A DNA stretch of 64,000 bases from a virus. Lineage: Duplodnaviria; Heunggongvirae; Uroviricota; Caudoviricetes. Under the pieces are notes generated by a model. The model worked only from the letters and a program-made list of their open reading frames with translations. It had not been told where the DNA came from and did no database searches. Position numbers and translations under genes: made by a program. The stretch lies in IMG/VR virus record IMGVR_UViG_2875697941_000001. One strand, 5' to 3'. Of this stretch, positions 4,184-17,553 are shown piece by piece (position 1 is the first letter of the stretch; the number at the start of each line of letters is the position of its first letter).

Positions 4184-5029
4184 ATGCTGGCTAAAGTCAC
4201 TTTCCTGAGCTGTATAACGATGAGCGATTTTACTTTTTCTGGCTATGAATTGGCCTGCTTTGTAACACACTCCGGCCTATCCCGTAGCGCCGGGCATATC
4301 CTGTCGCAATGTGCAAATCTCGCGGCAACAACCAGTGAATACTTCATTCACAAGCCTCACCGCCTGATCGCGGCAGAAACTGGTTATAGCCAATCAACCG
4401 TCGTTCGTGCATTCCGTGAAGCTGTAAACAAAGGAATTCTGTCTGTAGAGATTGTTATCGGCGATCACCGTGAACGTCGCGCTAACCTGTACCGGTTTAC
4501 ACCATCCTTTTTGGCCTTCGCACAACAAGCCAAAAATGCGCTGATAGAAAGCAAATTAAAGATCTCTTCAGCGGCAACCAAGGTTAAAGCTGTTCTCGCT
4601 AAGACATTGGCTTTATTTAATTTTTTATCCACACCCCCATGTCAAAATGATACCCCCTCCCCCTGTCAGGATGACGTGGCAATAAAGAATAAGAAGTCAC
4701 AAGTTAAAAAAACAAAAAGATCAGTTTCCGGCGGTGCCGGAACGACCAGCCTCAAAAAATTGACTTCATGGATCGCTAAGGCAAAAGCAAAGGCTGACAA
4801 TCTGCGGTTATCCAAAAAACGCACTCAAAAACATGAGTTCAAGCAGAAAGTAGAGGCGGCTGCGCGGAAATATGCTTACCTGAAGAACAAGCGTTCGCCT
4901 GATATTGGCGGGATATCAAACTTCGATAACCTACCGCATTGCATGACGGTAAACGAAGCTCTTAATGCGGTTTTAGCCAAAAATAAAGATAACGAACAAT
5001 GGGGTATACCGGCAGGATTCAGAGGGTAA
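4184..5029 (+). CDS. repL: RepL-like lytic replication protein (HTH-containing)
   Basis: 281-aa ORF directly downstream of kilA as in P1 kilA-repL operon; length matches my recollection of P1 RepL; identity not verified. Confidence 0.45.
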   Translation: MLAKVTFLSCITMSDFTFSGYELACFVTHSGLSRSAGHILSQCANLAATTSEYFIHKPHRLIAAETGYSQSTVVRAFREAVNKGILSVEIVIGDHRERRANLYRFTPSFLAFAQQAKNALIESKLKISSAATKVKAVLAKTLALFNFLSTPPCQNDTPSPCQDDVAIKNKKSQVKKTKRSVSGGAGTTSLKKLTSWIAKAKAKADNLRLSKKRTQKHEFKQKVEAAARKYAYLKNKRSPDIGGISNFDNLPHCMTVNEALNAVLAKNKDNEQWGIPAGFRG

Positions 5030-5042
5030 TGAATTGCTCTAA

Positions 5043-5059
5043 TTATAACCATGCATACT
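5043..5059 (+). promoter_or_regulatory. degenerate C1 operator-like 17-mer (ATTGCTCTAATTATAAC)
   Basis: 13/17 match to operator consensus; precedes the AT-rich DUF3800-like cassette. Confidence 0.3.
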
Positions 5060-5197
5060 TTCAACACCTCTAGTTTGCCATGAGGCAAACTCATAGGTGT
5101 CCTGGTAAGAGGACACTGTTGCCAAAACTGGACGCCCCATTATTGCAATTAATAAACAACTAACGGACAATTCTACCTAACAATAAGTGGAGTTAAC

Positions 5198-5902
5198 ATG
5201 TTGAACCGAAGAACATTTAATGTATTCTGCGATGAATCCTGTCACCTACTAAATGATCATAATAAAGTCATGGTATTGGGTGCGCTTTGGTGTCCCGGCA
5301 CTATCACAAAAAAAATTGCTAGAGACATCAAGGAATTAAAATTAAAACACAATCTAAAACCTGATTTCGAAATCAAGTGGACTAAAGTATCTGCGTCCAA
5401 AGTTGAATTTTACTTAGATGTCGTAGATTACTTCTTCAGCAACCCTGCATTGCGCTTTAGAGGTGTTGTTGTTCCTGATAAAGAGCAACTGGACCATGCT
5501 CGATTCCATCAAGATCATAATACTTTCTATTATAAGATGTTTTTTTATGTCTTAAAAAACATAATAGAAAGTAACAACACATACAATATCTACCTAGATA
5601 TAAAAGATACTTTAGGTATTGAAAAAATTGAGAAATTAAGAGGGGTTCTTCACAATGATCGCTATGATTACAATCATGAGTCGATAAACAGAATTCAACA
5701 TATACGATCTCATGAAGTGCAGCAATTGCAGCTAACGGATCTTTTCATTGGCGCGTTAGGCTACGTTCATCGAGGAATGAATAGCAACGCGGGAAAAATC
5801 CAAGTCATAAACAGAATAAAATCACATACAAACAGGGAGTTACTAAAAAGTACTCTTCCAACAGAAAGTAAATTTAATATTTTCGTGTGGGAGGCTCGCT
5901 GA
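5198..5902 (+). CDS. DUF3800-like protein (N-terminal FCDESCH motif)
   Basis: 234-aa ORF; DES motif near N-terminus typical of DUF3800; strongly AT-rich relative to flanks; could correspond to P1 rlfA (unverified). Confidence 0.55.
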   Translation: MLNRRTFNVFCDESCHLLNDHNKVMVLGALWCPGTITKKIARDIKELKLKHNLKPDFEIKWTKVSASKVEFYLDVVDYFFSNPALRFRGVVVPDKEQLDHARFHQDHNTFYYKMFFYVLKNIIESNNTYNIYLDIKDTLGIEKIEKLRGVLHNDRYDYNHESINRIQHIRSHEVQQLQLTDLFIGALGYVHRGMNSNAGKIQVINRIKSHTNRELLKSTLPTESKFNIFVWEAR

Positions 5903-7432: not shown

Positions 7433-8014
7433 TTACTGGAACGCCCGAACAATATCGGAGCTGTTATATATCGAAGAACCGGTCAACTGGAGGTTGACGG
7501 TGTTTTTCAGGAAATGCCCATTGCTGTCCCTGGGCGCATCGAGATCGAAACTTATGTCCTGGATAGCGACATCAATGATGTTGATCCGGCGACCAATGTT
7601 TAGCGTCACACGCTCCGGGATTCGACCACCAATGCTGGCATCTTTAAGTTCCGGGCTAATCATCGCTGACAATGCGGCGATAGCTCCTGAAACCTCAGTG
7701 AATGGGTCAAACAAAGCGATGAAAGTTACTGGCAGCGTGAAAGTCGGCGGTGTTCCCCCCTCCCAAACCATTAAGCTGTTCCAACGGGCCACCGACGTTG
7801 TTTCAGTACCAACCTGCGCAAAACCACTGAAAGCACCAGCAACAGACCCCATGGACATACCGGTAAACGGCGCTTCCCAATTCTGGGCCATGTTCATTGC
7901 TGCCCCCTGGCTGATATATCCGGTAACCTGGTACTGAGAGTTCGTTAAAGTAACTTTCAGAAATGGCGATACACCGTCAGCCTGGCTGTAAACCCCATAA
8001 GGTATAGGTGCCAT
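7433..8014 (-). CDS. phage structural protein (tail tube candidate)
   Basis: 193-aa ORF immediately downstream of sheath-like gene region; no recognised motif. Confidence 0.4.
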   Translation of the reverse strand: MAPIPYGVYSQADGVSPFLKVTLTNSQYQVTGYISQGAAMNMAQNWEAPFTGMSMGSVAGAFSGFAQVGTETTSVARWNSLMVWEGGTPPTFTLPVTFIALFDPFTEVSGAIAALSAMISPELKDASIGGRIPERVTLNIGRRINIIDVAIQDISFDLDAPRDSNGHFLKNTVNLQLTGSSIYNSSDIVRAFQ

Positions 8015-12365: not shown

Positions 12366-12454
12366 CAAGGTGAAATCGTGGCGATTTCACCTTGAAATTT
12401 TAGATAGATTTACTTTAAAAACAGTAGGTTAATAGTGAAATTTGAATGGCGAAA
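12366..12454 (-). other. parS: parS centromere (ParB box A heptamers ATTTCAC/ATTTCAA and box B TCGCCA flanking an AT-rich IHF-type core)
   Basis: reverse complement reads TTCGCCATTCAAATTTCACTATTAAC...AAATTTCAAGGTGAAATCGCCACGATTTCACC, matching the P1 parS organisation. Confidence 0.65.
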
Positions 12455-12456
12455 GT

Positions 12457-13458
12457 TTAAGGCTTCGGCTTTTTATCGAGGCTCTTTCTAAGGATATGCC
12501 CAATCATCCTGTCGAGTTCTTCCTGTAACTCTTTTGAGAGTCGATTAAACTCATAAGAAAATGCACGGCCTTTCACGCGCTTCCTTGCAAAGCGATCCTT
12601 GTCCTCAAATTTCCATAATTCAGTAACTACGGACTTATCTTTAGAACCTTTATCCGTGAGTAGTGAGGCTTCCTTTGTTATCAAGCGCAGGATTTTATTT
12701 TTAACTTCATCTTCGGCCATTTCTTCAATGGATAAGATGTCGTTTATTTCCGGGGATATGTTTTGAATAAGCTGATCAAACTCTAAATTCTTGTTCCCCA
12801 TTTCGTCGCCAACAGCACAAAGCGTTTTGTAGTCCGAAAAGGTTAATTCCGACTGCACAGGGAAAAGGGCGACTAATTCTTCCGGAGCACTCGCTGCCTG
12901 GAGAGCACGCGTGACCTTCGCCTGAGACAGCCCTTCTTTGGCTGCAATATCCTTCTGACTCATCCCATCATTTTTCATTCGCATCAAACGCAGACCTATT
13001 TCTCGAATGCTGTGCTGCAATGCTGTCTGAACGTCTTTCGCTAAATTTTGCGCTTCCTGAACGCTGATCTCCTGGTCCGTGACTAAAACCCGCAACCCTA
13101 CGTTCTCTAAGATGGCAGAAGCTCGACGCCGGGAACCATCCAAAATTTCAATTTTCCCTGTAGCCCGTCTAACACCTATTGCAGGGTAAAATTGCTGATG
13201 CTTAATAGTGCTTCGGATACTTTTTAATGATTTTGGCGTAAGAGATGCCTGGTCACGCCCGTTGTTATGCTGATCAACAAAGGTATCGCTTTCTACCTGG
13301 TTCGGAGGTATTACCTCTTCAATAAATGTGGCCTGGCGACCAGTTGATAACTTGAATACCTGCTCGACTCGATCGCCAGAGGCTGAAGAACTATCAAATC
13401 CGCTTAATATTGAAGGATTAAGGGTTCGCCCAATTGTTGGTCTGTTTTTCTTTGACAT
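12457..13458 (-). CDS. parB: ParB partition protein (P1 type)
   Basis: 333-aa ORF; length, order and sequence character match P1 ParB; parS immediately downstream. Confidence 0.85.
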   Translation of the reverse strand: MSKKNRPTIGRTLNPSILSGFDSSSASGDRVEQVFKLSTGRQATFIEEVIPPNQVESDTFVDQHNNGRDQASLTPKSLKSIRSTIKHQQFYPAIGVRRATGKIEILDGSRRRASAILENVGLRVLVTDQEISVQEAQNLAKDVQTALQHSIREIGLRLMRMKNDGMSQKDIAAKEGLSQAKVTRALQAASAPEELVALFPVQSELTFSDYKTLCAVGDEMGNKNLEFDQLIQNISPEINDILSIEEMAEDEVKNKILRLITKEASLLTDKGSKDKSVVTELWKFEDKDRFARKRVKGRAFSYEFNRLSKELQEELDRMIGHILRKSLDKKPKP

Positions 13459-13474
13459 GGGGGTTTCTTACTCC

Positions 13475-14671
13475 TCAGTTAGATCTGATAAATTCAATAC
13501 GGTCAAAAACTGCTTTAGCAAAATCTTCCGCGGCAATTCGCGCGTTCTTCAATGCATCAGCACTACCAACATACGTTGCCGGGTTAGCTGAAATAACAGT
13601 GTCAAAAGACTCGCCACAGCGTTCAAAACCGTCAAGGCGAGGGAGGACGACATCGAGCATATCCCCACCGAACACTTCTTTAGCCAGGCTATGGCAATAC
13701 TTATGGTCTGCCTTGTTACTCAATTTGGACATAAAACCAATGTTAGTCGCAAGCTGGCACTCGCAGCCTTCATCCGAAATGAGTTTCACCAACTCAGGAA
13801 GGCGGGCAACGTATTTAAGCGATGAGTGGAAATCAACCGTTGCAGGCGGCAGAGGTGTAAACAGTATATTGGCCGAGGCCAAAGCATTTTTCAGGAAGGC
13901 GTCAAGGTGAGGACCACTATCAACGAGGATAAAGTCATAATCGCTCTTCAGCTTATCAATCACATTTTCTTTCAGGACAGCATGGATGTTCTGACCCGGT
14001 AGATGCTCATTGCACAGCTCTCTCCAATCGGATGCAATAAAGGCATCGTCAATCGACGCAGGCATAACGTCAACCCCAGGTACAACAGAAGGAACAATAA
14101 ACTCCTCTAACAGCTCTTCACGGCTTACATTCTGCAACATAGCCTGTGCAGATGTTGCGTTTACGATACCAATAGAGTGTTTATGGCTTAAAAACATCGT
14201 TGCTGAAGATTGCGGATCAAGGTCAATAACCAGAATCCTTAAATCCTCCATAAGAAGATGAGGGTGAGCACGCATTGCATGCGCCAGAGAAACCGTCGAT
14301 ACAGTTTTTGACACACCGCCTTTAAGATTGGAGATGAAAATCACATACGCTTCGCTGTAGCGATCCCGGTATTTTGGCACTCCGCGATGTTCATATATGT
14401 CAATGATGTTCTGAATTGACATCGCATATTTCATTGAAGAGCCAGCAGGGCGTTTATCGAAAACATAACCCTTTTCTTCCATTTCACTTACGGCATAGTC
14501 AACGTTCGCTCGAGTCAGTAGAGGCAATTTTGCCAGTGCCGCTTTCGCATAGACCTGGTAAAACTCGTTCGCGTGTAGCTCATCCTTTTGCAACTGTACT
14601 TGTTCAGTCAGAACATTGAGCATTCTGTTTGCTCTTTGAGCAACCTTGTGAAGCTGGCTGGAATCACTCAT
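13475..14671 (-). CDS. parA: ParA partition ATPase (P1 type, with N-terminal DNA-binding extension)
   Basis: 398-aa ORF; deviant Walker A KGGVSKT; upstream of parB. Confidence 0.85.
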   Translation of the reverse strand: MSDSSQLHKVAQRANRMLNVLTEQVQLQKDELHANEFYQVYAKAALAKLPLLTRANVDYAVSEMEEKGYVFDKRPAGSSMKYAMSIQNIIDIYEHRGVPKYRDRYSEAYVIFISNLKGGVSKTVSTVSLAHAMRAHPHLLMEDLRILVIDLDPQSSATMFLSHKHSIGIVNATSAQAMLQNVSREELLEEFIVPSVVPGVDVMPASIDDAFIASDWRELCNEHLPGQNIHAVLKENVIDKLKSDYDFILVDSGPHLDAFLKNALASANILFTPLPPATVDFHSSLKYVARLPELVKLISDEGCECQLATNIGFMSKLSNKADHKYCHSLAKEVFGGDMLDVVLPRLDGFERCGESFDTVISANPATYVGSADALKNARIAAEDFAKAVFDRIEFIRSN

Positions 14672-14812
14672 CGAAAGTCATCCTTTATGCTGTATTTTTG
14701 AATTTACTTAAAAATGCTGCATAAAATAATAATGTATGCACAGATGCTTGTACATAGCATTCTCTGCATGTTTGGTTCATTTTGCACGATTGAGAGTTAC
14801 AAGGAGGACACA

Positions 14813-14833
14813 AAAAAGCCCCGTTCAGGGGCA
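14813..14833 (-). terminator. rho-independent terminator of the GIY-YIG-like gene
   Basis: minus strand reads GCCCCTGAACGGGGC followed by TTTTTT, 7 nt after the ORF stop. Confidence 0.55.
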
Positions 14834-14839
14834 TCAGTG

Positions 14840-15649
14840 TTATTTGCTAAGAGCAGCGAATAATCGTTCGAAATCGATAGTATCTATAGCACGCGTAAGC
14901 GCCGGAAGTTCAGCCTCAAAGTACCCGTGTCGATCGTAAAAGAAGGGACCGAAGAGCGAGGCATGTTGGATTCTACTTCGCCCCAGCCCGGACACACAGT
15001 TAAGCCCATTACCGGCTAAAAGGCTAAAAAACTTCTCTGGATTATCGTGGTAAAGCTGGGAATCAATGGTGGCGGTTAACTCTTCCATAGGGAAGCACAC
15101 CCGCCTTGTCTCCCAGGGATATTTAGTCCGAAGCATAAACATTGCTTTCAGCAATTCACATTGAGCGCGGATCGCGTCCGGTTCATAGCCAGATATGGAG
15201 ACATAAGCCATGTCCCTCATTCCTGCGTCATCTTTGAAAGTCACGATAGAAGTAACATCCAGCTCTTTTTCGAAAGAGCGAGCAGCATCTACTGGACGCT
15301 GAAGTAAATCATTCGACTTAATGCGCTCGAGAATCCCTCCCCACATATCATTTAGATATTCGATATGAGCCAAAACCTTATCAAGACACTCTCGTGTAAA
15401 CCATTCAGTATGCCCGCCACCGGCGCTTTTCTCCCACGGCGCATTCCAGGGGAAAAAGGTTGCGTGTAAAGCCCGCTCAAGATTAACTATTGCCAATCGC
15501 GTACCACGATAGACCCGTGAAAGCGCAAAATCGGGACTCACTTGTAGCCCTTTAAACCGTGCCAATGGACCACATGAAATGCCGATTTTAAAAGTATCTC
15601 CATTCTCCGGCACCAGAACGTAGAGGTAGTGTTGTTTCTCTTCTTGCAT
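14840..15649 (-). CDS. GIY-YIG / T5orf172-like domain protein with uncharacterised C-terminal domain
   Basis: 269-aa ORF; N-terminus HYLYVLVPENGDTFKIGIS...R...E pattern typical of GIY-YIG-like nucleases; located between incA iterons and parA. Confidence 0.55.
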   Translation of the reverse strand: MQEEKQHYLYVLVPENGDTFKIGISCGPLARFKGLQVSPDFALSRVYRGTRLAIVNLERALHATFFPWNAPWEKSAGGGHTEWFTRECLDKVLAHIEYLNDMWGGILERIKSNDLLQRPVDAARSFEKELDVTSIVTFKDDAGMRDMAYVSISGYEPDAIRAQCELLKAMFMLRTKYPWETRRVCFPMEELTATIDSQLYHDNPEKFFSLLAGNGLNCVSGLGRSRIQHASLFGPFFYDRHGYFEAELPALTRAIDTIDFERLFAALSK

Positions 15650-15679
15650 ATCAATACCACTGCTTGATGAGAACCGCGC

Positions 15680-15945
15680 AAATGTTGACTATGCGCGAAA
15701 GTTAATGTGAATAGTTGACTATGCGCGATGTGACTACAGTCAAAAGTTGACTGTAGTCGATTTAACTCCACCAAAGATCGACTATGTAAGATATTGTCGG
15801 GAGAAACGTTGACTATACGCGATGAAATGACCCTAAAAGCCATCTCAATAGCGACTTGCAGAATATTGACGCCAGCAAAAATCCACCAGCGTCAACGAAT
15901 GTCGCCTATAGTCAACTTCTCGCTATCGCATATAGTCAATATTAT
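15680..15945. repeat. incA: incA-like iteron array (about 9 copies of GTTGACTATGCGCGA-type repeat, both orientations)
   Basis: repeats at 15683, 15713, 15746, 15777, 15808, 15866 (forward) and 15903, 15927 (inverted) read directly. Confidence 0.7.
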
Positions 15946-16883
15946 GGATTGCGCTTATGGATCTGGAAGCCGATTTTCCTGCCGTTTTTTATCTCTGAAA
16001 ATTTAAGATATTCAATAGCTTCCAAATCTTTCATGGCTTTTCTGATAACGCTATTTTGCACGCTAACGGATGATTTGAGATTAAGCCTTGCTCTAAGGCG
16101 CTCAATGCTGACAGGTGCCGGGTTGGCGGGTAGAGCCTCAAAGAATGTATACAGTACCTTGGCCGTCTCTTTGCGCCCGAGCTTATCCAGCATCTTCAGC
16201 TTCAGGATTCGCTTATAGTCAACATAGTAAAGTTCAGATAGCTGTTTCTGCGGCTGGATCTCGATAACATCAAGCTCGGTATTCAGGCTGCTATATGCCA
16301 ACAAGTTGACGTTAATGTTATTGAGATGACCTTTTGCTGCCGGGAAGCGGAATTTGACAACTGTCTGCTGAATGCGTGTCAGAGAGTCATCAATACTTTT
16401 ACGGAACGCCTTTGAAAGGCGCTTACGTGGATAGCCGCATCGATCGGCAAACTCGGAGAATGGCAGGGTGATTATGCCGTCATCATCAGGTGCGTAGTCA
16501 AACAACGCGGAGGTTATGCCCACCCACACCTTAAAATCAGTATCCATATCCAGGCGTGGACCATGAATTTCAATTCCCTCATAGCCTTCCTGCTCAACAA
16601 TTTTGAGGCTTGATAGTTCTTCGGTTGCGTTCGTTGTGTTTGTAGTAACTGACGATCCGCGACGTAGTGCCACATTGGTAGATTTTAAGGTTGGCACAAA
16701 CACACCTAAGCGCAACAAAGCGATGGGTTGTATAGTGCTATTGTTATTGGGTTTCAGGCTGTGGATTTCTCCTGTATTTCCTGCAACTTCTTCAACGCTA
16801 AGGAAGCCTTTATTTTCTTCCGGCATCGTGGTTTCTCCATATGTGGCGCGGCCTGGCGTCATCTGGATTGCAGTTATCAACAA
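15942..16883 (-). CDS. repA: RepA iteron-binding replication initiator (P1 RepA / RepFIB family)
   Basis: 313-aa ORF flanked by iteron arrays on both sides; true start may be internal (MPEENKG). Confidence 0.8.
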   Translation of the reverse strand: MLITAIQMTPGRATYGETTMPEENKGFLSVEEVAGNTGEIHSLKPNNNSTIQPIALLRLGVFVPTLKSTNVALRRGSSVTTNTTNATEELSSLKIVEQEGYEGIEIHGPRLDMDTDFKVWVGITSALFDYAPDDDGIITLPFSEFADRCGYPRKRLSKAFRKSIDDSLTRIQQTVVKFRFPAAKGHLNNINVNLLAYSSLNTELDVIEIQPQKQLSELYYVDYKRILKLKMLDKLGRKETAKVLYTFFEALPANPAPVSIERLRARLNLKSSVSVQNSVIRKAMKDLEAIEYLKFSEIKNGRKIGFQIHKRNP

Positions 16884-16904
16884 CTGTGAATAGTCAGGCT
16901 CTAA

Positions 16905-17120
16905 AATCGCGTACAGTCAATGTTTCTGTCGCGTATAGTCAACAATAAATCGCGTGCAGTCAACAATAAATCGTGCACAGTCAACATAAAATCGCGTATA
17001 GTCAATGTTGATCCCATTTCAGGCCAGAAATGGCGCGGCTTACAGCGATCCGGGATCTTCTTTGGATCTTCCTAGGTTCTCTTTGGGATCTGTTTATTGG
17101 ATCTATGCTGTGGATAAGTT
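16905..17120. other. incC: oriR-like origin: 5 evenly spaced iterons (incC) followed by a GATC-rich segment and DnaA box TGTGGATAA
   Basis: TCGCGTA(C/T)AGTCAA(T/C) repeats at about 21-bp spacing 16907..17006; at least five GATC sites 17010..17100; DnaA box at 17108..17116. Confidence 0.65.
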
Positions 17121-17160
17121 GAATAAACCGGCCAACAAAGCCGGTTGGAAGGAAGCCATA

Positions 17161-17553
17161 TTATTCTACGCTTTCGATGAGAAGACCATGTTCATAGCAT
17201 TTAAGCTCATCGCCCTCGTACAGGAATTGGTATCCAATACCACCATCTTCATGGACATTAGGGAATAACTCATCACTTACCGAAGAACAAATCACACCAA
17301 TGCAGCGATCAACGCCTTCTCGTTCTTCAGTGCTGAAAAAATCCTCTTCGGTAAGAACATGAGTACATTGCTCATCAGCATAGGTCGGAAATACATGCTC
17401 AATGCAATCCGGGTGTTTTAAACCAAGCTGATCGGCAAGCTCGAAAGCACGACGGTATTGTTCAGATCCTGGCTTGCCAACAGTGATTTGCTCAATTTTG
17501 TAGATTGAAGTCGCTTTGTTGATAGTTTGCTTTACTGTTACTTTATCAGACAT
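17161..17553 (-). CDS. hypothetical protein (P1 upfA position)
   Basis: 130-aa ORF downstream of origin. Confidence 0.45.
   Translation of the reverse strand: MSDKVTVKQTINKATSIYKIEQITVGKPGSEQYRRAFELADQLGLKHPDCIEHVFPTYADEQCTHVLTEEDFFSTEEREGVDRCIGVICSSVSDELFPNVHEDGGIGYQFLYEGDELKCYEHGLLIESVE

What the first reader, a model, noticed from the sequence alone, without database searches (positions are those of the whole stretch)
14813..15649. GIY-YIG/T5orf172-like gene with its own terminator wedged between the incA iterons and parA
In the P1-type maintenance region the order repA - incA - parA - parB - parS is normally contiguous. Here an 810-bp ORF with a GIY-YIG-like N-terminus (HYLYVLVPENGDTFKIGIS...) and an uncharacterised ~180-aa C-terminal domain sits between the iteron array and parA, followed by a clean hairpin terminator (14813..14833). 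That looks like an acquired single-gene cargo (nuclease-based defence, anti-defence or homing-endonuclease-like) in a slot expressed in the plasmid prophage state.
Basis: partly seen in the sequence, partly recalled or inferred. Interest (0 to 1): 0.7.

Follow-up and report, generated by a model that had tools for sequence, protein, structure and literature searches.

The report
Nuclease gene in swapped P1 replicon
A real, intact gene for a small DNA-cutting enzyme sits at the edge of the alternative 'p0111' replication cassette that about half of P1-like phage-plasmids carry instead of P1's own replicon; its function is untested, but its build and position point to a dispensable, selfish or competitive nuclease rather than a housekeeping gene or a recognised defence system.

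Summary
ORF 14840-15649 (-) is intact at 269 aa, has a T5orf172/GIY-YIG N-terminus, and is followed by a hairpin terminator. The context needs correcting. The adjacent repA and iterons are not P1's. They belong to the 'p0111' Rep_3 replicon, which replaces P1 oriR-repA-incA between Ppar and the origin core.

The gene is the last gene of that cassette. It occurs about 1:1 with RepA' in roughly 400 plasmids. The JL22 paper already lists it as an unknown gene.

What appears new:
- In 1.8-5.8 billion proteins, the only full-length relatives (44%, 28%, 25% identity) occupy the same repA-iterons-[gene]-parA slot of three other P1-like elements. One of these has an IncY-like replicon. P1 itself has the slot empty.
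- The nuclease motif is conserved. The C-terminal domain is an acidic orphan that evolves fast, and its predicted fold best matches the WH1 domain of iteron-plasmid initiators.
- The gene is dispensable: 10 of 69 copies are defective, and piN/piS is 0.32 against 0.05 or less in its neighbours.

Best reading (confidence about 0.4) is a homing-endonuclease-like or Odn-like nuclease aimed at rival P1-like replicons. Population tests showed no directional drive. Known defence models do not match.

The parts
14840..15649 (-). Gene for a 269-aa two-domain protein (T5orf172/GIY-YIG nuclease plus orphan C-terminal domain), intact in this window
   Evidence: ORF. Pfam T5orf172 above its cut-off. PHROG 2876 (function unknown) matches full length. 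100% identical copies occur in plasmids.
15335..15637 (-). N-terminal nuclease domain (aa 5-105) with the conserved motif Y10, K21-x-G23, R31, E58, H62, E82-W-F
14843..15262 (-). C-terminal domain (aa ~130-269): acidic orphan with predicted winged-helix topology, best matching Rep WH1 domains
14808..14832 (-). Intrinsic terminator of the nuclease gene, which insulates the par operon
   Evidence: An equivalent hairpin plus T-run follows the L004 allele.
14726..14754 (-). Ppar (-35 TGTACA, -10 TATTAT), identical to P1. P1 homology begins or ends at ~14771.
   Evidence: Promoter scan. P1 annotation. Alignment.
15684..15939 (.). Control ('incA-like') iteron array of the p0111 replicon. Four copies sit at 15684, 15714, 15746 and 15808, and two inverted copies at 15902 and 15925. 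The last iteron is 35 bp upstream of the nuclease start codon.
15942..16826 (-). repA' (p0111, Rep_3 family initiator, 294 aa from the ATG that matches homologues)
   Evidence: Pfam Rep3_C and Rep3_N. Alignment with the L002 RepA. Identity to P1 RepA is 43%.
16902..17009 (.). Origin iterons: five copies at 21-bp spacing upstream of repA'
17010..17135 (.). Origin core (five GATC sites plus a DnaA box), about 75-80% homologous to P1 oriR. This is the far boundary of the swapped cassette.
   Evidence: with the P1 annotation.
13475..14671 (-). parA, P1-type (100% aa identity to P1 ParA), a conserved flank

Best explanation
Shown. The ORF encodes a two-domain protein. The N-terminus is a T5orf172/GIY-YIG nuclease domain with its catalytic motif intact. 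The C-terminus is an acidic, fast-evolving domain. The gene is the terminal gene of the p0111 replicon cassette: origin iterons, repA', control iterons, nuclease, terminator. In about half of P1-like phage-plasmids this cassette replaces P1's oriR-repA-incA between the conserved origin core and Ppar. The gene is dispensable for maintenance.

Inferred. The protein is a selfish or competitive nuclease of the homing-endonuclease / origin-directed-nuclease kind. It is probably made at a low level in the plasmid state, either by read-through from repA' or from a weak promoter buried in the iterons. I propose that its Rep-WH1-like domain directs it to the replicon region of rival P1-like plasmids, through DNA or, given its acidity, through the rival's Rep protein. 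The cut rival would then be either destroyed or repaired from the resident element, which would exchange the replicon cassette. Its terminator keeps read-through out of the autoregulated par operon.
For: - Cassette membership: P1 homology ends about 70 bp beyond the stop codon and resumes at the origin core. The gene occurs about 1:1 with RepA'.
- Slot fidelity: the only full-length relatives in 1.84e9 representatives and 5.8e9 clusters sit in the same repA-iterons-[gene]-parA slot of three other P1-like elements, which carry three different iteron types. P1 and other lineages have the slot empty. This presence/absence at one site is typical of free-standing homing endonucleases.
- A second, independent replicon swap: L002 and L003 have 96-99% identical flanks. 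The swap has the same boundaries, and the break lies 63 bp past the nuclease stop codon.
- Published work reports frequent IncY/p0111 switching, 17 changes in 193 elements (PMC11165635). I find at least 21 changes on the flank tree of 83 elements.
- T5orf172 nucleases sit at exchange boundaries in phages (PMC10448857). One of them, Odn, is fused to a Rep-derived domain, cuts a rival's origin iterons, and may drive replicon-module swapping (PMC8263062).
- The C-terminal model best matches Rep WH1 domains by two methods.
- The C-terminus diverges fast (31% identity) while own RepA (83%) and own iterons stay conserved, which argues for an external target.
- Degeneration: 10 of 69 copies are defective through at least 5 independent events, and piN/piS is 0.32 against 0.00-0.05 in repA', parA and parB.
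Against: - No activity or target has been demonstrated.
- There is no sequence similarity to either RepA.
- The C-terminal domain is acidic (pI 5.1-5.4), which is atypical for a sequence-specific DNA-binding domain.
- There is no directional bias toward gain of the nuclease-bearing cassette (Mk2 rates 121 vs 138, LRT 0.15).
- Both cassette junctions, not only the nuclease side, are in linkage equilibrium with their flanks. Exchange can therefore be explained by the generally rampant recombination of these elements.
- The p0111-type gene never appears alone next to an IncY replicon, so autonomous homing is not seen.
- No clear promoter was found.
Confidence: 0.4

Rival explanations
1. Anti-phage (or anti-plasmid) defence nuclease. 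A single-gene effector expressed from the plasmid prophage, whose variable C-terminal domain senses an invader and whose GIY-YIG domain degrades DNA, either the invader's or the host's (abortive infection).
For: The gene is a nuclease on a mobile element with a fast-evolving C-terminal domain. More distant N-terminal homologues lie in MGE or defence-island-like contexts, for example next to Mrr_cat and WYL genes, TA genes, or conjugative plasmid genes. It is dispensable and often inactivated.
Against: No PADLOC model matches, even at E<=1. The family is confined to one slot of one replicon cassette, whereas defence hotspots are typically filled by many unrelated systems. The slot holds either this family or nothing.
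Confidence: 0.2
2. Accessory factor of its own replicon. The WH1-like domain pairs with the cognate RepA', or binds its iterons. The protein modulates initiation, handcuffing or copy number, possibly by nicking.
For: Strict linkage to repA' and the control iterons, with the start codon 35 bp from the last iteron. WH1-like fold. In Rep proteins WH1 is the dimerisation domain (established knowledge of RepE and pPS10 RepA).
Against: Ten of 69 copies are defective, including the copy on a contig the size of SJ46. P1 IncY and several other P1-like replicons work without it. The C-terminus is only 31% identical between two cassettes whose RepA is 83% identical and whose iterons share the same consensus. 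piN/piS is far above that of repA'.
Confidence: 0.15
3. A decaying relic or domesticated non-catalytic protein. It is either a former homing endonuclease now drifting with no present activity, or one reused as a DNA- or protein-binding regulator, as CapR is in PLE.
For: Relaxed constraint and repeated inactivation. There is precedent for domesticated T5orf172 proteins (PMC10448857).
Against: The catalytic-motif residues are invariant across alleles that are only 25-44% identical overall, and 31 of 39 invariant positions lie in the nuclease domain. piN/piS of 0.32 is still well below 1. Eighty-six percent of copies are intact.
Confidence: 0.1

Closest known systems
The same gene in SJ46, RCS47, JL22 (gp57), vB_EcoM-Ro157c2YLVW, phi456 and about 400 p0111-type P1-like plasmids
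   Same: 97-100% identical protein in the same position. Annotated 'GIY-YIG nuclease family protein', 'T5orf172 domain-containing protein' or 'hypothetical'. The JL22 paper states that repA' (p0111) and an unknown gene gp57 replace repA (IncY) (PMC9603915).
   Different: Nothing differs in the sequence. No function, domain analysis or evolutionary analysis was found in the literature searched.
Odn (ICP1 Gp88), the origin-directed nuclease
   Same: A T5orf172 nuclease joined to a domain related to a replication initiator. It acts in a conflict between mobile elements, and its activity co-varies with replicon-module swapping (PMC8263062).
   Different: Odn has its Rep-like domain at the N-terminus, 42% identical in sequence to the target's RepA_N DNA-binding domain. 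Here the extra domain is C-terminal and has no sequence similarity to any Rep. It resembles Rep_3-type WH1 only at the level of predicted fold, and it is acidic. Odn's cleavage of iterons is demonstrated; nothing is demonstrated here.
Free-standing GIY-YIG / T5orf172 homing endonucleases (T4 Seg proteins, I-TevI, ICP1 and T5-like T5orf172 HEGs)
   Same: Size of about 250-300 aa and a nuclease-plus-second-domain build. Intergenic position next to essential genes and at the edge of an exchanged segment. Presence or absence at one site among colinear genomes, and frequent degeneration.
   Different: No NUMOD, HTH or CapR-type zinc-finger DNA-binding module. The nuclease is N-terminal, as in I-TevI but unlike ICP1 HEGs. 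No biased spread was detected. The gene travels with a 2.3-kb cassette rather than alone.
SLX1 / HIGLE GIY-YIG structure-specific endonucleases
   Different: 14-17% identity. SLX1 has a RING/PHD C-terminus and needs SLX4. The similarity is at fold level only.
WH1 domain of iteron-plasmid initiators (RepE of F, pPS10 RepA, MSBI1.176 Rep; Pfam Rep3_N)
   Different: No sequence or profile similarity. There is no WH2 domain. The scores are modest and rest on a model of medium confidence.

Membership tests
T5orf172 (PF10544) / GIY-YIG nuclease superfamily | Profile match above the curated threshold | tested here: met
   PF10544 at 26.8 bits against a cut-off of 20, aa 8-85. PHROG 681 'endonuclease' at E=1.1e-9.
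T5orf172 (PF10544) / GIY-YIG nuclease superfamily | Conserved catalytic-motif residues (Tyr of GIY, K/Y-x-G, Arg, Glu) | tested here: met
   Y10, K21, G23, R31, E58, H62 and E82 are at least 90% conserved in 68 homologues and invariant in the four slot alleles. Assigning them to catalytic roles rests on published GIY-YIG work, not on a test here.
T5orf172 (PF10544) / GIY-YIG nuclease superfamily | GIY-YIG alpha/beta fold | tested here: met
T5orf172 (PF10544) / GIY-YIG nuclease superfamily | Metal-dependent nuclease activity | not testable with these tools
   Needs biochemistry.
Free-standing homing endonuclease | Presence or absence at one site in otherwise colinear relatives | tested here: met
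   The slot is occupied in the window, L002, L003 and L004. It is empty in P1 and in 55 IncY and 8 or more diverged loci. No pair with near-identical replicons differing only by the gene was found.
Free-standing homing endonuclease | Lies at the boundary of a recombinationally exchanged segment | tested here: met
   The breakpoints lie 69 bp (window vs P1) and 63 bp (L003 vs L002) past the stop codon.
Free-standing homing endonuclease | Recognisable sequence-specific DNA-binding module (NUMOD/HTH, zinc finger, CapR-like) | tested here: not met
   No Pfam family matches aa 105-269. The domain is acidic, pI 5.1-5.4. Only a winged-helix-like predicted fold is seen.
Free-standing homing endonuclease | Super-Mendelian spread (gains exceed losses) | tested here: not met
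   On the flank tree of 83 elements there are 21 type changes, with rates IncY->p0111 of 121 and p0111->IncY of 138 and LRT 0.15. This is a crude test, confounded by recombination.
Free-standing homing endonuclease | Cleaves the cognate gene-less allele near the insertion point | not testable with these tools
   Needs cleavage assays on the P1 incA-Ppar interval.
Odn-like origin-directed nuclease | Targeting domain homologous in sequence to a replication initiator's DNA-binding domain | tested here: not met
   BLASTP against P1 RepA and RepA' gives E>4. hhalign probability is 0.2%.
Odn-like origin-directed nuclease | Targeting domain with an initiator-like fold | tested here: inconclusive
Odn-like origin-directed nuclease | Iteron-dependent cleavage of a rival origin | not testable with these tools
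   Needs biochemistry or genetics.
Known anti-phage defence systems (PADLOC-DB v2) | Match to any defence-protein model | tested here: not met
   0 families at E<=1.
P1 (IncY) plasmid-maintenance backbone | Present at this position in reference P1 | tested here: not met
   The P1 match ends at Ppar, and the P1 incA-Ppar interval has no gene.
p0111 replicon cassette of P1-like phage-plasmids | Constant co-occurrence and fixed order with RepA' and its iterons | tested here: met
   392 plasmids hold at least 80% of 14700-17200. The gene is in 402 plasmids and RepA' at 99% or more in 394. All 45 loci checked carry repA' upstream.

The most novel reading that the evidence does not exclude
The protein is a protein-guided origin-directed nuclease. 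Its acidic C-terminal domain mimics the WH1 dimerisation domain of iteron initiators and docks onto the Rep protein of a rival P1-like replicon while that Rep is bound to its iterons. The GIY-YIG domain then cuts the rival's replicon. This weapon, linked to the replicon cassette, both excludes competitors and, through break repair, causes the unusually frequent IncY/p0111 replicon switching seen in P1-like phage-plasmids.
Probability: 0.12. Interest if true: 0.85.

Novelty: new variant of a known kind. Interest (0 to 1): 0.5.

Why it matters
P1-like phage-plasmids are major carriers of resistance genes. They come in two replicon types, and published surveys show that these switch frequently, with no mechanism proposed. 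A conserved but dispensable nuclease sits exactly at the edge of the exchangeable replicon cassette, and its second domain looks like part of a replication initiator. That makes it a concrete, cheap-to-test candidate for a role in replicon competition or exchange. If confirmed, it would extend the Odn principle (a nuclease aimed at a rival's replication module) from a Vibrio phage-satellite conflict to plasmid-plasmid conflict in Enterobacteria. It would also bear on incompatibility typing and on the use of P1-derived vectors. If it has no such role, it is still a well-defined orphan nuclease family restricted to one genomic slot.

Tried and rejected
- **Simple insertion into a P1 replicon:** rejected, because the whole replicon differs.
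- **Known defence system:** no PADLOC hit and no NCBIfam hit.
- **Sequence homology of the C-terminal domain to P1 RepA or RepA':** none by BLASTP or hhalign. A profile search against PDB sequences gave nothing. The full-family profile against PDB gave only an insignificant Hpy188I motif match.
- **Apparent truncated or intermediate alleles:** these turned out to be artefacts. P0003 is a contig start. P0008 and P0028 look frameshifted. P0005 is a chimera.
- **More alleles:** scans of GTDB genomes, IMG/VR and JGI/ENA metagenomes, plus a second profile search, found only the p0111-type copies.
- **A close pair differing only by the gene:** L135 looked promising but is only 77-85% identical to L003.
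- **Directional drive:** no asymmetry.
- **Recombination hotspot specific to the nuclease-side junction:** both junctions are equally unlinked from their flanks.
- **Structured RNA in the region:** nothing near any Rfam threshold.
- **Clear sigma-70 promoter for the gene:** none passed the scan. By eye, the only candidate is a weak one overlapping the last iteron (TTCACA-18-CAACAT).
- **The afdb50 fold library** was unavailable.

Full report
**1. Observation**

The minus-strand ORF 14840..15649 is real. It has an ATG start, encodes 269 aa and has no internal stops. Its N-terminus reads MQEEKQHYLYVLVPENGDTFKIGIS and matches Pfam T5orf172 (PF10544), a GIY-YIG clan family, above the gathering score (26.8 vs 20 bits, aa 8-85).

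Seven bases after the stop codon lies a GC-rich hairpin followed by a T-run. On the minus strand this is GCCCC-TGAAC-GGGGC TTTTTT at 14832..14808. It folds at -14.1 kcal/mol, z = -2.4 against shuffles. The hairpin sits between the gene and the par promoter. That promoter (-35 at 14754-14749, -10 at 14731-14726) is identical to the annotated P1 Ppar.

**2. Context: a different replicon, not P1's**

- The RepA upstream (15942-16826) is a Rep_3-type initiator (Rep3_C and Rep3_N) and is only 43% identical to P1 RepA.
- The iterons are GTTGACTATGCGCGA-like, not the P1 19-mers. Five copies at 21-bp spacing lie upstream of repA' (16902-17009). Six lie between repA' and the nuclease gene (15684-15939). 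One lies inside repA'.
- Megablast of 12400-17000 finds SJ46, RCS47, JL22, Ro157c2YLVW, phi456 and others at 98.8-99.1% over the whole stretch. Reference P1 matches only the parB-parA-Ppar half, at 99.4%.
- Pairwise alignment puts the break at window ~14771, about 69 bp beyond the nuclease stop codon.
- On the other side the iterons are unrelated, but the GATC cluster and DnaA box of the origin (window ~17010-17135) are 75-80% homologous to P1 oriR. Near-identity resumes before upfA.

The unit that differs from P1 is thus a 2.3-kb cassette: origin iterons, repA', control iterons, nuclease, terminator.

**3. Already in the databases and the literature**

- 392 PLSDB plasmids hold at least 80% of 14700-17200. 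Most are non-mobilizable E. coli or Salmonella plasmids of about 90-100 kb.
- tblastn finds the protein in 402 plasmids, all at 90% identity or more except one unrelated N-terminal match. RepA' at 99% identity or more is in 394 plasmids.
- RefSeq names the protein 'GIY-YIG nuclease family protein'.
[quoted passage not shown] It counts IncY in 31 and p0111 in 24 of 55 P1-like elements (PMC9603915).
- No paper in the searchable library discusses the gene's function.

**4. An extremely narrow family, tied to one slot**

An exhaustive HMMER scan of 1.84 billion representatives found 83 hits at E<=1e-3. Apart from fragments of the query's own cluster, only P0004 aligns over its full length. P0010 and P0011 match in the nuclease domain there (E 7e-21 and 1.5e-17), and their C-termini align in MAFFT. 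A profile search of 5.8 billion clusters with all four alleles added nothing.

All three relatives lie in P1-like elements in the same place, repA - iterons - [gene] - parA - parB:

| Locus | Iteron / replicon type | RepA identity | Gene identity to the window's |
|---|---|---|---|
| L002 | p0111-like iterons | 83% to the window's | 44% |
| L003 (Salmonella enterica by the source's name) | P1-type incA 19-mers | 83% to P1's | 28% |
| L004 | a third iteron type | 43-49% to the others | 25% (MAFFT; 30% by pairwise alignment) |

Sources for the table.

Aligning L003 with P1 shows that P1 simply lacks about 900 bp between the last incA iteron and Ppar. None of 55 IncY loci with P1-identical RepA has the gene, and neither do diverged loci L134-L151. 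More distant N-terminal homologues (P0012, P0013, P0017) lie in unrelated mobile-element contexts.

L002 and L003 have 96-99% identical flanks but different replicons plus nuclease alleles. Their breakpoints fall 63 bp past the nuclease stop codon and about 158 bp upstream of repA. So the same cassette has been exchanged in a second lineage, with the same edges.

**5. The protein**

*C-terminal domain (aa ~106-269).*
- It has no Pfam match.
- It is 31% identical between the window and L002, and 19-23% identical to L003 and L004.
- It is acidic in all four alleles, pI 5.1-5.4.
- Modelled alone, it gives pLDDT 71 and pTM 0.72 from only a 7-row alignment.
- It has a winged-helix order of elements preceded by a beta-hairpin.
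- Foldseek gives the same order: 6h24 at E 9e-3 and probability 0.96, then 1hkq, 2z9o and 5tbf.

These scores are low in absolute terms. There is no sequence or profile similarity to P1 RepA or RepA'. 'Rep-WH1-like' is therefore a lead from two concordant rankings, not an established homology.

**6. Population data**

*Intactness.* I examined 73 p0111-type loci from GTDB, IMG/VR and metagenomes. Of these, 69 can be assessed: 59 copies are intact and 10 are defective. The defects are S112* in five copies (two distinct sequences), Q228* in two (one on a contig of SJ46's length), W68* in one, a 1-bp deletion in one, and an IS200/IS605-type insertion in one.

*Constraint.* In 44 copies piN/piS is 0.32, against 0.02 for repA', 0.00 for parA and 0.05 for parB. 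The gene is under some constraint but is clearly dispensable.

*Replicon switching.* Replicon type is nearly uncoupled from the flanks. Mean flank distance is 0.0205 for p0111-p0111 pairs, 0.0262 for IncY-IncY and 0.0248 between types. A flank tree of 83 non-redundant elements needs at least 21 type changes. This agrees with the 17 changes in 193 Salmonella elements reported in PMC11165635.

*Two tests for a nuclease-driven process came out negative.*
- The two-rate model shows no bias toward gaining the nuclease-bearing cassette (121 vs 138, LRT 0.15).
- Cassette type is in linkage equilibrium with SNPs 8-400 bp away at both junctions, not only the nuclease side. r2 is at most 0.13 on the par side and at most 0.24 on the origin side, while neighbouring flank SNPs average r2 0.6-0.7.

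Both tests are crude, but they do not single out the nuclease.

**7. Interpretation**

The facts to explain are these:
- A catalytically intact-looking GIY-YIG nuclease.
- A family found only in one intergenic slot of P1-like replicon cassettes, where it is either present or absent.
- A rapidly diverging second domain whose divergence does not track its own RepA or iterons.
- Dispensability and repeated decay.
- A position exactly at the edge of a frequently exchanged segment.

This pattern is the one described for free-standing GIY-YIG and T5orf172 homing endonucleases, which 'occupy boundaries of genetic exchange' in phages (PMC10448857). The initiator-like second domain recalls Odn, a T5orf172 nuclease with a Rep-derived domain that cuts a rival element's origin iterons and may drive replicon-module swapping in its target (PMC8263062).

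I therefore favour a selfish or competitive nuclease directed at rival P1-like replicons, at confidence about 0.4. The acidic charge of the second domain makes direct sequence-specific DNA binding doubtful. It leaves open recruitment through a rival's Rep protein, which is the most novel reading (about 0.12).

The rivals are:
- an unrecognised anti-phage defence nuclease (0.2);
- an accessory factor of its own replicon (0.15), disfavoured by dispensability and by C-terminal divergence against conserved RepA and iterons;
- a decaying or domesticated relic (0.1), disfavoured by the invariant catalytic motif.

*Expression.* The last iteron ends 35 bp before the start codon, and no good promoter or Shine-Dalgarno sequence is present. 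Transcription is probably read-through from repA' or from a weak promoter overlapped by an iteron. The terminator then shields the autoregulated par operon. This step is inferred.

**8. Verdict**

It needs correcting on one point, because the gene is not an insertion into a P1 replicon but part of the widespread p0111 replicon cassette and is already present in hundreds of records.

The functional question is open and easy to test. The slot-restricted family and the initiator-like domain are, as far as I could find, undescribed. I rate it a new variant of a known kind, with moderate interest (0.5).

Noticed in passing
window 16209-16223: A well-matched iteron copy (TCGCTTATAGTCAAC) lies inside the repA' coding sequence, in addition to the arrays on either side of the gene.
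   Followed up: no
window 17010-17135 vs P1 oriR (L001 ~7880-7990): The GATC cluster and DnaA box of the origin are 75-80% homologous between the p0111 and IncY replicons although their iterons are unrelated. The two replicons are therefore diverged versions of one design, and this core is the far edge of the swapped cassette.
   Followed up: partly
L084-L149 (IncY loci from IMG/VR): Elements with P1-identical RepA fall into two repA-to-parA spacing classes: about 410 bp (30 loci) and about 560 bp as in P1 (22 loci). About half carry a par operon that megablast does not match to P1 par, so par type also varies independently of replicon type.
   Followed up: no
L051:5295-7057 (IMGVR_UViG_2645727563_000002): The nuclease gene is interrupted by an IS200/IS605-type element encoding a TnpB-like protein (389 aa) and a Y1 transposase (141 aa). 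About 230 bp of the gene is lost.
   Followed up: partly
P0005 (E. coli plasmid, 108-kb contig): A 197-aa ORF joins an unrelated 78-aa N-terminus to residues 105-223 of the protein, that is, the C-terminal domain without the nuclease. Whether this is a rearrangement scar or a functional fusion is unknown.
   Followed up: no
L016, L017, L021, L023, L025 (gene at 5001-5807 of each): The commonest defective allele, S112*, leaves exactly the nuclease domain (aa 1-111) without the C-terminal domain. It occurs as two distinct sequences.
   Followed up: no
window 14840-15649 vs 12457-14671 and 15942-16826, across 44 loci: Synonymous diversity of the nuclease gene (piS 0.026) is about half that of repA', parA and parB on either side (0.049-0.059). 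This is unexplained. It could reflect a more recent common ancestry of this gene.
   Followed up: no
PLSDB NZ_MG825383.1 120044-120698 (192-kb E. coli plasmid): Only Ppar, the terminator and the 3' two-thirds of the nuclease gene are present, without repA'. This is apparently a truncated remnant in a larger plasmid.
   Followed up: no
L003:6883-6945: Downstream of the L003 allele, just before Ppar, there is a stretch (CACACAGCACATCCTCCCT) that resembles a P1-type iteron. It may be chance or a displaced iteron.
   Followed up: no
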